Below, in pieces: positions 43,571-44,924 of a DNA stretch of 64,000 nt. Made by a program: the position numbers and the translations under genes. Source of the DNA: the human T2T-CHM13v2.0 reference genome, Homo sapiens. How positions within the stretch are numbered: the first letter of the stretch is position 1; every line of letters starts with the position of its first letter. The stretch lies in assembly GCF_009914755.1 (NCBI RefSeq), contig NC_060926.1, one strand, 5' to 3'. Below the pieces are notes generated by a model. The model saw only the letters and a program-made list of their open reading frames with translations. It was not told the DNA's origin and did no database searches.

Positions 43571-44845
43571 GTCCAGGCATGGTGGTTCATGCCTGTAATC
43601 CCAGCACTTTGGGAGGCTGAGGCGGGTGGATCACAAGGTCAGGAGATCGAGACCATCCTGGCTAACACGGTGAAACCCTGTCTGTACGAAAAATACAAAA
43701 AATTAGCCAGGCGTGGTGGCGGGTGCCTGTAGTCCCAGCTACGGGAGGTGCTTGCAGTGAGCCGAGATCATGCCACTGCACTCCAGCCTGGGTGACAGAG
43801 TGAGACTCCATCTCAAAAAGTAAAATGGAATGGAATGGAATGGAATGGAATGGAATGGAATGGAATGGAATGGAATGGAATGGAATGGAATGGAATGGAA
43901 TGGAATGGAATGGAATGGAATGGAATGGAATGGAATGGAATGGAATGGAATGGAATGGAATGGAATGGAATGGAATGGAATGGAATGGAATGGAATGGAA
44001 TGGAATGGAATGGAATGGAATGGAATGGAATGGAATGGAATGGAATGGAATGGAATGGAATGGAATGGAATGGAATGGAATGGAATGGAATGGAATGGAA
44101 TGGAATGGAATGGAATGGAATGGAATGGAATGGAATGGAATGGAATGGAATGGAATGGAATGGAATGGAATGGAATGGAATGGAATGGAATGGAATGGAA
44201 TGGAATGGAATGGAATGGAATGGAATGGAATGGAATGGAATGGAATGGAATGGAATGGAATGGAATGGAATGGAATGGAATGGAATGGAATGGAATGGAA
44301 TGGAATGGAATGGAATGGAATGGAATGGAATGGAATGGAATGGAATGGAATGGAATGGAATGGAATGGAATGGAATGGAATGGAATGGAATGGAATGGAA
44401 TGGAATGGAATGGAATGGAATGGAATGGAATGGAATGGAATGGAATGGAATGGAATGGAATGGAATGGAATGGAATGGAATGGAATGGAATGGAATGGAA
44501 TGGAATGGAATGGAATGGAATGGAATGGAATGGAATGGAATGGAATGGAATGGAATGGAATGGAATGGAATGGAATGGAATGGAATGGAATGGAATGGAA
44601 TGGAATGGAATGGAATGGAATGGAATGGAATGGAATGGAATGGAATGGAATGGAATGGAATGGAATGGAATGGAATGGAATGGAATGGAATGGAATGGAA
44701 TGGAATGGAATGGAATGGAATGGAATGGAATGGAATGGAATGGAATGGAATGGAATGGAATGGAATGGAATGGAATGGAATGGAATGGAATGGAATGGAA
44801 TGGAATGGAATGGAATGGAATGGAATGGAATGGAATGGAATTAAC
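43571..44845 (+). mobile_element. AluY-type element with a right-arm deletion and a (TGGAA)n-converted tail
   Basis: Body 43571-43814 with CCTGGCTAACACGGTGAAACCC and GCTTGCAGTGAGCCGAGAT; TSD AAAATGGTCTTGGGG (43556-43570) and AAAATTGTCTTGGGG (44846-44860); TT|AAAA endonuclease site at 43552. Confidence 0.92.
43826..44840 (+). repeat. Pure (TGGAA)203 pentanucleotide array (GGAAT/ATTCC; HSat3/SCA31-type motif)
   Basis: 1015 bp of uninterrupted TGGAA, preceded by ...CTC AAAAAG TAAAA and followed by TTAACAAAAT. Confidence 0.98.
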
Positions 44846-44924
44846 AAAATTGTCTTGGGGATTAGGGCTTAGATGTAGAAAGCTTAAGTGTACACAACCT
44901 TCAGTCTATAGCACCCGCTGTACA

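What the first reader, a model, noticed from the sequence alone, without database searches (positions are those of the whole stretch)
43821..44860. Pure (TGGAA)203 expansion grown inside an AluY poly(A) tail at a non-BEAN1 euchromatic locus
Seen: the AluY body ends ...ACTCCATCTC AAAAAG TAAAA, followed by 203 uninterrupted TGGAA units (43826-44840) and then TTAAC. The right TSD (AAAATTGTCTTGGGG) matches the left one (AAAATGGTCTTGGGG), so the array lies inside the Alu insertion and is the converted A tail. One TAAAA unit remains at the 5' edge, with no TAGAA intermediates. Known: motif switches in A-rich, often Alu-tail, pentamer repeats followed by expansion underlie RFC1/CANVAS (AAGGG), DAB1/SCA37 (ATTTC) and the FAME loci (TTTCA). 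(TGGAA)n is the pathogenic motif of SCA31 in BEAN1/TK2, and ATTCC occurs as an interruption in SCA10 alleles. No BEAN1 or TK2 exon is visible here, and the SCA31 (TAGAA)n/(TAAAATAGAA)n blocks are absent. Inference: an independent, probably polymorphic TAAAA-to-TGGAA expansion allele. It could be a candidate expansion-disease locus or an example of satellite-III-like sequence being born in euchromatin.
Basis: partly seen in the sequence, partly recalled or inferred. Interest (0 to 1): 0.93.

Follow-up and report, generated by a model that had tools for sequence, protein, structure and literature searches.

The report
Known polymorphic TGGAA repeat in Alu tail
A perfectly pure 203-unit TGGAA repeat sits where an old Alu element's A-tail should be, inside an intron of SH3RF3; it is real, but it is a common, already catalogued human length-and-motif polymorphism and not a likely new disease locus.

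Summary
Window 43826-44840 is exactly (TGGAA)203 with no interruption. It lies between the 3' end of a dimeric 7SL-derived Alu and the right copy of a 15-nt target-site duplication that has no other near-match in the window. One TAAAA unit remains at the 5' edge.

In-situ origin from the Alu A-tail is well supported. It matches the published anatomy of the SCA31 site (AluSx tail, TAAAA to TGGAA; review PMC8773600).

The locus is already in print. The long-read tandem-repeat catalogue (PMC12855859; preprint 2024) lists an SH3RF3 AATGG locus among seven genic loci where motif and allele size correlate. It reports 429 versus 78 haplotype alleles from 272 individuals, with the long alleles carrying the reference motif. 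The AATGG class is therefore common (at least 15%), which argues against a penetrant disease allele.

Not stated in the texts I read:
- The Alu-tail anatomy.
- The sense-strand identity with the SCA31 RNA motif.
- This is the only run of 40 or more pure TGGAA units in the whole T2T-CHM13 genome, satellite III included.

Interest is modest.

The parts
43556..43570 (+). Left target-site duplication AAAATGGTCTTGGGG. It can be extended to 43552-43570, TTAAAAAATGGTCTTGGGG.
   Evidence: Its only match with 2 or fewer mismatches in the window, on either strand, is the right copy.
43571..43814 (+). Alu body: a dimeric 7SL-derived SINE, AluY-like by recalled diagnostic positions. It has an internal deletion of 38 alignment columns after 43742. 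The start is ambiguous by 1-3 G residues (NCBI mask starts at 43568, the Rfam hit at 43572).
   Evidence: Metazoa_SRP matches at 43572-43686 and 43706-43782. (alignment with 6 window Alus). (7.3% mismatch to the 7-sequence majority, half of it CpG transitions).
43815..43825 (+). Remnant of the original A-rich tail: AAAAAG followed by one TAAAA unit.
   Evidence: The other window Alus carry their poly(A) tail at these alignment columns.
43826..44840 (+). (TGGAA)203, 1015 bp, 100% pure. It is on the sense strand of SH3RF3, so the pre-mRNA carries (UGGAA)203. All three + frames are open and read poly-WNGME.
   Evidence: (ATG ORFs of 339, 390 and 345 aa run through the array). (the only run of 40 or more pure units in the genome). 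Gene strand is from the hub's annotation table.
44841..44845 (+). TTAAC. It is probably the start of an extended right TSD and not a degenerate repeat unit.
   Evidence: it aligns with TTAA at 43552-43555, with one extra C.
44846..44860 (+). Right target-site duplication AAAATTGTCTTGGGG, with 1 mismatch to the left copy.

Best explanation
An old, presumably fixed AluY-like element inserted by target-primed reverse transcription into what is now an SH3RF3 intron, about 70 kb downstream of the gene start.

Proposed history (inferred unless marked otherwise):
1. The Alu A-tail decayed into an A-rich pentamer microsatellite of TAAAA type. One such unit survives.
2. A-to-G substitutions at two positions of a unit created TGGAA.
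3. Once a few TGGAA units existed, replication slippage expanded and homogenised them. The purine-rich AATGG strand forms stable G-zipper hairpins, which would favour this.
4. The result in this haplotype is a 1015-bp pure array.

Today the locus segregates in humans as two allele classes: short alleles with another motif and long AATGG alleles. The long class is common and is the allele in both reference genomes. It is best read as a benign polymorphism.

Because the array is on the sense strand, carriers transcribe (UGGAA)~200 within SH3RF3 pre-mRNA. This is the same RNA repeat as in SCA31 foci and satellite III lncRNA, apparently without overt disease.

Shown here: the anatomy, purity, uniqueness and strand. 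Taken from papers: the polymorphism, the motif-size correlation, the hairpin and the SCA31 parallels. Inferred: the substitution path, slippage as the expansion mechanism, and benignity.
For: Anatomy:
- The array lies exactly between the Alu 3' end with a TAAAA remnant and the TSD.
- The Alu is identified by Rfam SRP matches.

In-situ growth, as opposed to captured satellite:
- The array is 100% pure over 203 units.
- In 29 satellite III loci sampled from the same genome, the longest pure runs are 3-14 units.
- A (TGGAA)40 pattern matches 164 times forward and 0 times reverse in the 3.117-Gb genome. That equals 203-40+1, and the 100 listed places step by 5 nt inside this array.

The Alu is older than the array: 7.3-10.5% divergence, about half of it CpG transitions, against zero substitutions in 1015 bp of array.

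Population data (PMC12855859, section 11, Fig. 3 legend and abstract):
- SH3RF3 is one of 7 genic loci with a motif-size correlation, with 429 versus 78 haplotype alleles and P = 3.4e-46.
- The shorter alleles carry the non-reference motif.
- A short AATGG_4 allele sits between the two clades.

Precedent: the SCA31 repeat lies in an AluSx poly-A tail, with normal (TAAAA)8-20, pathogenic TAAAA(TAGAA)1-4(TGGAA)n, and a proposed A>G origin (PMC8773600 passages).

Structure: (AATGG)3-6 oligonucleotides form G-zipper hairpins (bioRxiv 10.1101/2025.11.03.686349 passages).
Against: - I did not see Fig. 3, its coordinates or Supplementary Fig. 11 of PMC12855859 (figures are not held and the PDFs were unreadable). 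The identity of the published SH3RF3 AATGG locus with this array is therefore inferred from gene, motif and 'reference = long'.
- The short-allele motif is not named in the text I read. 'TAAAA ancestor' rests on one surviving unit.
- No TAGAA or TGAAA intermediates survive in this allele, so the substitution path is not documented here.
- No ape orthologue or raw reads could be examined.
- ViennaRNA DNA folding gave 0 kcal/mol for both strands. It does not model G-zipper pairing, so structure-driven slippage rests on the literature only.
- The text leaves open which class has 429 and which has 78 alleles.
Confidence: 0.85

Rival explanations
1. The array is a captured piece of satellite III. 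For example, template switching or double-strand-break repair copied HSat3 sequence into the Alu tail, so the array was not grown in place from tail units.
For: The motif is that of HSat3. HSat3 makes up 47.6 Mb of this genome (bioRxiv 10.1101/2021.07.12.452052 passage). Junctions of TAAAA plus TGGAA runs are common inside chr9 HSat3: 262 places, of which the 100 listed are 1 here and 99 pericentromeric, 96 of them on C9.
Against: Purity is 203 of 203 units, against longest pure runs of 3-14 units in 29 sampled HSat3 loci. No other run of 40 or more pure units exists anywhere in the genome to serve as a donor. The array has no flanking sequence or TSD of its own and fits exactly between the tail remnant and the Alu TSD. 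A 4-unit AATGG allele intermediate between the two clades is reported in the population.
Confidence: 0.05
2. The long TGGAA allele is a pathogenic or pre-mutation allele of a new SCA31-like repeat-expansion disorder.
For: It has the same motif and the same sense-strand orientation as the toxic SCA31 RNA. (TGGAA)80-100 is toxic in flies while (UGGAA)22 is not (PMC9099484 passages). It shares the Alu-tail motif-switch architecture of SCA31, SCA37, CANVAS and FAME. A 2026 preprint names SH3RF3 among motif-switch loci used to motivate outlier screens.
Against: The AATGG/long class is the reference motif and accounts for 78 or 429 of 507 haplotype alleles in 272 long-read genomes treated as a healthy-population resource. 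A CHM13 haplotype with 203 units is therefore within common variation. I found no disease association in the library: searches of SH3RF3 with TGGAA, AATGG, pentanucleotide and repeat expansion returned only the catalogue paper, its preprint, the outlier preprint and unrelated papers.
Confidence: 0.04
3. The array, or its length and purity, is an assembly artefact of T2T-CHM13.
For: None was found. Raw reads could not be inspected.
Against: Independent long-read assemblies and read-based genotyping report long AATGG alleles at SH3RF3. A 1-kb array is far shorter than HiFi or ONT reads (general knowledge). Both junctions are clean and the right junction is unique in the genome.
Confidence: 0.01

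Closest known systems
SCA31 insertion in the BEAN1/TK2 intron, 16q22.1
   Same: Both have (TGGAA)n on the sense strand of a host-gene intron. Both sit in the poly-A tail of an Alu with a TAAAA unit at the 5' edge. An A-to-G origin from TAAAA is proposed for SCA31 (PMC8773600; window).
   Different: This locus is on chr2 in SH3RF3, not on chr16. The Alu is AluY-like and not AluSx (AluY by recall). The array is pure and lacks the (TAGAA)n and (TAAAATAGAA)n blocks. It is 1.0 kb, against a 2.5-3.8 kb complex insertion. It is common in the population, whereas in SCA31 99.77% of controls have no insertion and none carries TGGAA.
Alu-tail pentanucleotide motif-switch loci (RFC1/CANVAS AAAAG to AAGGG; DAB1/SCA37 and FAME ATTTT to ATTTC) and the benign motif-size loci of the tandem-repeat catalogue (TSG101, METAP2, NFS1, ARHGEF3, CCDC38)
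   Same: An A-rich pentamer derived from an Alu tail acquires a variant motif, and alleles with that motif are longer.
   Different: At SH3RF3 the expanded motif is the reference and a common allele. In this haplotype almost nothing of the ancestral tract remains: one unit. In four of the catalogue loci a tract of the short-allele motif stays next to the long variant tract.
Human satellite III (HSat3, (CATTC)n-derived pericentromeric satellite) and its HSATIII lncRNA
   Same: The 5-bp unit is the same. The transcribed RNA would carry the GGAAU repeats that bind SRSF1, SRSF9 and TDP-43 according to reviews. The purine strand forms a G-zipper hairpin.
   Different: This array is euchromatic, 1 kb long and perfectly pure. 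HSat3 arrays are Mb-scale and diverged, with longest pure runs of 3-14 units in 29 sampled loci.
Euchromatic (AATGG)n at hg38 chr1:224,011,691-224,016,553, the site of somatic expansions in laryngeal carcinoma (PMC13739014)
   Same: It is another AATGG simple repeat outside satellite blocks, and it is length-unstable.
   Different: I did not examine that locus. In CHM13 it cannot hold 40 or more pure units. Any link to an Alu tail is unknown.

Membership tests
Alu-tail-derived pentanucleotide motif-switch repeat (class of SCA31, SCA37, CANVAS and FAME, and the benign catalogue loci) | The repeat occupies the 3' A-tail position of an Alu, inside that Alu's target-site duplications. | tested here: met
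Alu-tail-derived pentanucleotide motif-switch repeat (class of SCA31, SCA37, CANVAS and FAME, and the benign catalogue loci) | An A-rich ancestral pentamer is present beside the variant motif or in other alleles. | tested here: inconclusive
   Only one TAAAA unit and an AAAAAG survive in this allele. PMC12855859 says the short alleles carry a different motif, but the text I read does not name it.
Alu-tail-derived pentanucleotide motif-switch repeat (class of SCA31, SCA37, CANVAS and FAME, and the benign catalogue loci) | Alleles with the variant motif are longer than alleles with the other motif. | not testable with these tools
   Only one haplotype is available here. The literature reports 429 versus 78 alleles and Mann-Whitney P = 3.4e-46.
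Alu-tail-derived pentanucleotide motif-switch repeat (class of SCA31, SCA37, CANVAS and FAME, and the benign catalogue loci) | The repeat is intronic in a transcribed gene. | tested here: met
   The hub annotation places SH3RF3 on the + strand with no exon in the window. No exon-like feature was looked for beyond that.
SCA31 locus | The repeat lies in the shared BEAN1/TK2 intron on 16q22.1. | tested here: not met
   The right junction has a single genomic match, on C2:109660816-109660854.
SCA31 locus | The insertion is complex, with (TAGAA)n and (TAAAATAGAA)n accompanying (TGGAA)n. | tested here: not met
   The window holds no other pentamer run of 4 or more units apart from (TTCTC)12, which lies 29 kb away.
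SCA31 locus | The TGGAA-containing allele is absent from controls and segregates with ataxia. | not testable with these tools
   The literature points the other way for this locus: the AATGG class is at least 15% of 507 haplotype alleles.
Human satellite III | Large pericentromeric or acrocentric arrays of diverged GGAAT-derived units. | tested here: not met
   The locus is on a chromosome arm, 1015 bp long and 100% pure. HSat3 samples have pure runs of 14 units or fewer.

The most novel reading that the evidence does not exclude
The common SH3RF3 allele is a natural experiment on UGGAA-repeat RNA. About 200 pure sense-strand UGGAA units in the intron of a gene studied in neurons and microglia (abstract listing of the Glia 2026 paper) appear to be tolerated. 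UGGAA toxicity in SCA31 would then depend on context: cell type, expression level, length well above 200 units, or the flanking TAGAA/TAAAA blocks.

Alternatively, the allele is not neutral. It could act as a cis modifier of SH3RF3 expression or splicing, or as a mild sink for TDP-43 and SRSF9.

The array lies in the first part of the gene, at roughly hg38 109.197-109.200 Mb by my offset estimate. That is inside 'region 1' (109,128,058-109,263,859) of rare variants associated with delayed Alzheimer onset in PSEN1 G206A carriers (PMC13557802 passages). The link is untested. The build of those coordinates and any linkage disequilibrium with the repeat were not checked.
Probability: 0.08. Interest if true: 0.7.

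Novelty: already known. Interest (0 to 1): 0.3.

Why it matters
The locus is a clean example of how an Alu tail becomes a structure-forming pentamer array. It is a useful benign comparator for SCA31: same motif, same strand logic and same Alu-tail origin, yet common in long-read population genomes.

This cautions against calling a repeat pathogenic from its motif alone. It also suggests that UGGAA RNA toxicity needs more than about 200 units or a particular cellular context.

The array is the single longest pure TGGAA tract in a complete human genome, longer than any pure run in 47.6 Mb of satellite III. That shows young euchromatic arrays can be far more homogeneous than the satellite they resemble.

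Tried and rejected
1. Genome-wide Alu-end-to-TGGAA pattern with a 30-nt gap. It was rejected by the tool as too long for a pattern with letter sets. I replaced it with shorter patterns.
   - (TCTCAAA, a gap of up to 13 nt, three units) gave 52 places. Only this locus is on a chromosome arm. The pattern would miss Alus with longer A-runs or a different 3' end.
2. A search for pure runs of about 20 units, to find the next-longest arrays. Nothing is known here about runs of 15-39 units elsewhere.
3. Locating the SCA31 site in this genome through the TK2 kinase domain (Pfam PF01712). The search found only the chr4 and chr2 paralogues and no chr16 exon, so no side-by-side comparison was made. The SCA31 anatomy is taken from reviews.
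4. Fetching the rest of SH3RF3 to exclude a second AATGG array.
5. ViennaRNA DNA folding of 100 nt of each strand. It gave 0 kcal/mol and no z-score. It is uninformative because non-canonical G-zipper pairs are not modelled.
6. The original SCA31 paper (PMC2775824) is not held.
7. The readable supplement of PMC12855859 has no SH3RF3 row. Its PDFs and figures could not be read.
9. The assembly-artefact and satellite-capture readings were considered and rated low (see rival explanations).

Full report
**What is there**

Window 43826-44840 is exactly 203 uninterrupted TGGAA units. A regex finds no other run of 3 or more TGGAA or TTCCA units in the 64-kb window. TRF reports 43824-44841, period 5, 203.6 copies, 100% matches and no indels. 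The sequence read-out shows, in order:
- the upstream element ending ...GAGACTCCATCTC at 43814;
- AAAAAG TAAAA at 43815-43825;
- the array;
- TTAAC at 44841-44845;
- AAAATTGTCTTGGGG at 44846-44860.

**The upstream element is an Alu, and the array is in its tail position**

Rfam's metazoan SRP model matches two monomers at 43572-43686 and 43706-43782 on the + strand. The element aligns end to end with six other Alus of the window. In that alignment the other Alus begin their poly(A) tails at the columns where this one reads AAAAAGTAAAA followed by TGGAA units.

The element lacks 38 alignment columns in the right monomer, after 43742. It differs from the majority of the seven window Alus at 18 of 247 aligned positions, 9 of them CpG transitions. 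It differs from a young-looking window Alu (7909-8199, minus strand) at 26 of 247 positions, 14 of them CpG transitions. It is therefore an old insertion.

It shares GAGATCGAGACCATCC and GCTTGCAGTG with the window's Y-like Alus. The name 'AluY' itself rests on diagnostic positions that I recall, not on a consensus comparison.

**Target-site duplication**

The 15-mer before the Alu (43556-43570) has exactly one other match with 2 or fewer mismatches on either strand of the window. That match is the 15-mer at 44846-44860, with 1 mismatch.

A local alignment extends the duplication to TTAA-AAAATGGTCTTGGGG versus TTAACAAAATTGTCTTGGGG. This places the array wholly inside the Alu insertion, at the A-tail.

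**Grown in place or captured from satellite III?**

I searched the window's own genome, which is 3.117 Gb in 24 contigs; the window is C2:109616001-109680000.

- The right junction is unique.
- A pure 40-unit pattern matches 164 times forward and 0 times reverse. An array of 203 units yields 203-40+1 = 164 registers. The 100 listed places run from C2:109659826 in steps of 5, and the remaining 64 fit exactly up to the array's end. No other run of 40 or more pure units therefore exists in this genome, on either strand. The tool warns that counts of repeats can be lower bounds.
- In 29 satellite loci fetched from pericentromeric and acrocentric regions, the longest pure run is 3-14 units.
- A junction pattern (TCTCAAA, up to 13 nt, three units) gives 52 places. 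Only this one is on a chromosome arm. Of the 30 loci fetched for it, only this one contains a full Alu.

The purity, the exact fit between the tail remnant and the duplication, and the absence of any possible long pure donor all favour in-situ origin followed by slippage.

**What is in print**

Searches of the paper library for SH3RF3 with TGGAA, AATGG, pentanucleotide and repeat expansion returned two relevant works.

The first is the long-read tandem-repeat catalogue: Chiu et al., Nat Commun 2026, PMC12855859, with its 2024 medRxiv version PMC11213036. I read its abstract, sections 11, 13 and 33, and the Fig. 3 legend. It analysed 272 individuals. It lists SH3RF3 among seven genic STR loci with two same-length motifs whose alleles differ in size:
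- 429 versus 78 haplotype alleles, P = 3.4e-46;
- an outlier short allele 'AATGG_4 in SH3RF3' sits between the two clades.

The second is a 2026 medRxiv preprint (PMC13142565; I read section 22). [quoted passage not shown]

The main text of the catalogue contains no occurrence of 'Alu' or 'TGGAA', and it mentions SCA31 only for BEAN1.

Limits of what I saw:
- Figures are not held and the PDF supplements could not be read. The one readable spreadsheet has no SH3RF3 row.
- I therefore did not see the locus coordinates, the name of the short motif, the size ranges, or which class has 429 alleles.
- Identity with this array is inferred from gene, motif and 'long = reference'.

**Mechanism**

The closest documented case is SCA31. 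According to the review PMC8773600 (passages):
- the SCA31 repeat lies in the poly-A tail of an AluSx;
- normal alleles are (TAAAA)8-20;
- pathogenic alleles read TAAAA(TAGAA)1-4(TGGAA)n;
- an A>G substitution origin is proposed.

The SH3RF3 allele has the same layout without the TAGAA intermediates. A preprint shows that (AATGG)3-6 oligonucleotides form G-zipper hairpins that are robust to salt and repeat number (10.1101/2025.11.03.686349, passages). This gives a plausible reason why TGGAA alleles slip and grow while A-rich alleles stay short. That step is inferred. ViennaRNA cannot model it and returned 0 kcal/mol for both strands.

Zero substitutions in 1015 bp, against 7-10% divergence in the adjoining Alu, says the array is much younger than the Alu or is continuously homogenised. 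With a recalled substitution rate of about 1e-8 per base per generation, purity alone bounds the age only loosely, at roughly one to a few million years.

**Consequences**

SH3RF3 is on the + strand (hub table), so the pre-mRNA carries (UGGAA)203. All three + frames are open through the array, with ATG ORFs of 339, 390 and 345 aa. They encode the WNGME pentapeptide described for SCA31 (PMC9099484, passages).

According to the same review, the SCA31 insertion is 2.5-3.8 kb. (TGGAA)80-100 is toxic in flies and (UGGAA)22 is not. 99.77% of controls have no insertion, and the rest lack TGGAA.

At SH3RF3, by contrast, the AATGG class is 78 or 429 of 507 haplotype alleles in a population resource, and it is the allele of both reference genomes. 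A penetrant dominant or rare recessive disease allele is therefore very unlikely. A threshold effect for much longer alleles, or a subtle modifier effect, is not excluded.

**A lead, not a result**

I matched the hub's window position of SH3RF3-AS1 (-28155..-25382) to a variant listed as 'ncRNA_exonic' at 109,128,058 in PMC13557802. This puts the array at roughly 109.197-109.200 Mb in that paper's coordinates. That is inside its 'region 1' (109,128,058-109,263,859) of rare variants associated with later Alzheimer onset in PSEN1 G206A carriers (passages). I did not verify the build, the offset across 70 kb, or any linkage.

**Verdict**

The disease-candidate weighting and the novelty are not supported.

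Three points are not stated in the texts I read: the Alu-tail anatomy, the sense-strand identity with the SCA31 and HSATIII RNA motif, and the fact that this is the longest pure TGGAA tract in a complete human genome. The locus belongs to a well-known class and is already catalogued. Interest is modest.

Noticed in passing
window 14700-14860, next to the minus-strand Alu at about 14872-15140: A second Alu tail in the window has turned into a roughly 160-nt polypyrimidine tract (purine-rich on the Alu's strand). It includes a pure (TTCTC)12 at 14748-14807, which is (GAGAA)12 in Alu orientation, flanked by CT and TTTC repeats. It is another A-tail-derived pentamer microsatellite.
   Followed up: partly
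L067 (G000:C14:4670913-4673943) and L073 (G000:C14:5582058-5585088): Satellite III on the chr14 short arm carries a roughly 50-60-nt fragment of an Alu 3' end, recurring every 440-760 nt in one orientation. In each of the five L073 copies I printed, a short A-rich stretch follows the fragment and runs into GGAAT units. TE fragments inside HSat3 repeat units are reported in general terms in the T2T centromere preprint. Whether this subfamily began at an Alu tail was not examined.
   Followed up: partly
whole genome G000: The junction TAAAA plus five TGGAA units occurs 262 times. The 100 places listed are almost all in the chr9 satellite block, apart from this locus and single pericentromeric sites on C1, C4 and C7. 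The junction of five A plus six units occurs 16 times, all pericentromeric or on acrocentric short arms.
   Followed up: no
window 7909-8199, minus strand: This Alu looks young. It has a long uninterrupted A-tail (25 A's at the aligned 3' end) and most CpGs intact. It served as the comparison for the older Alu at 43571.
   Followed up: no
literature: hg38 chr1:224,011,691-224,016,553: Another euchromatic (AATGG)n array is reported to expand somatically in laryngeal carcinoma: 10 of 15 tumours by nanopore and 18 of 24 by PCR (PMC13739014 passages). I did not examine it in this genome.
   Followed up: no
whole genome G000, Pfam PF01712 search: The deoxynucleoside kinase profile found exons only on C4 and C2 and none on chr16, where TK2 lies. 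The exon-by-exon search can miss genes with short exons.
   Followed up: no
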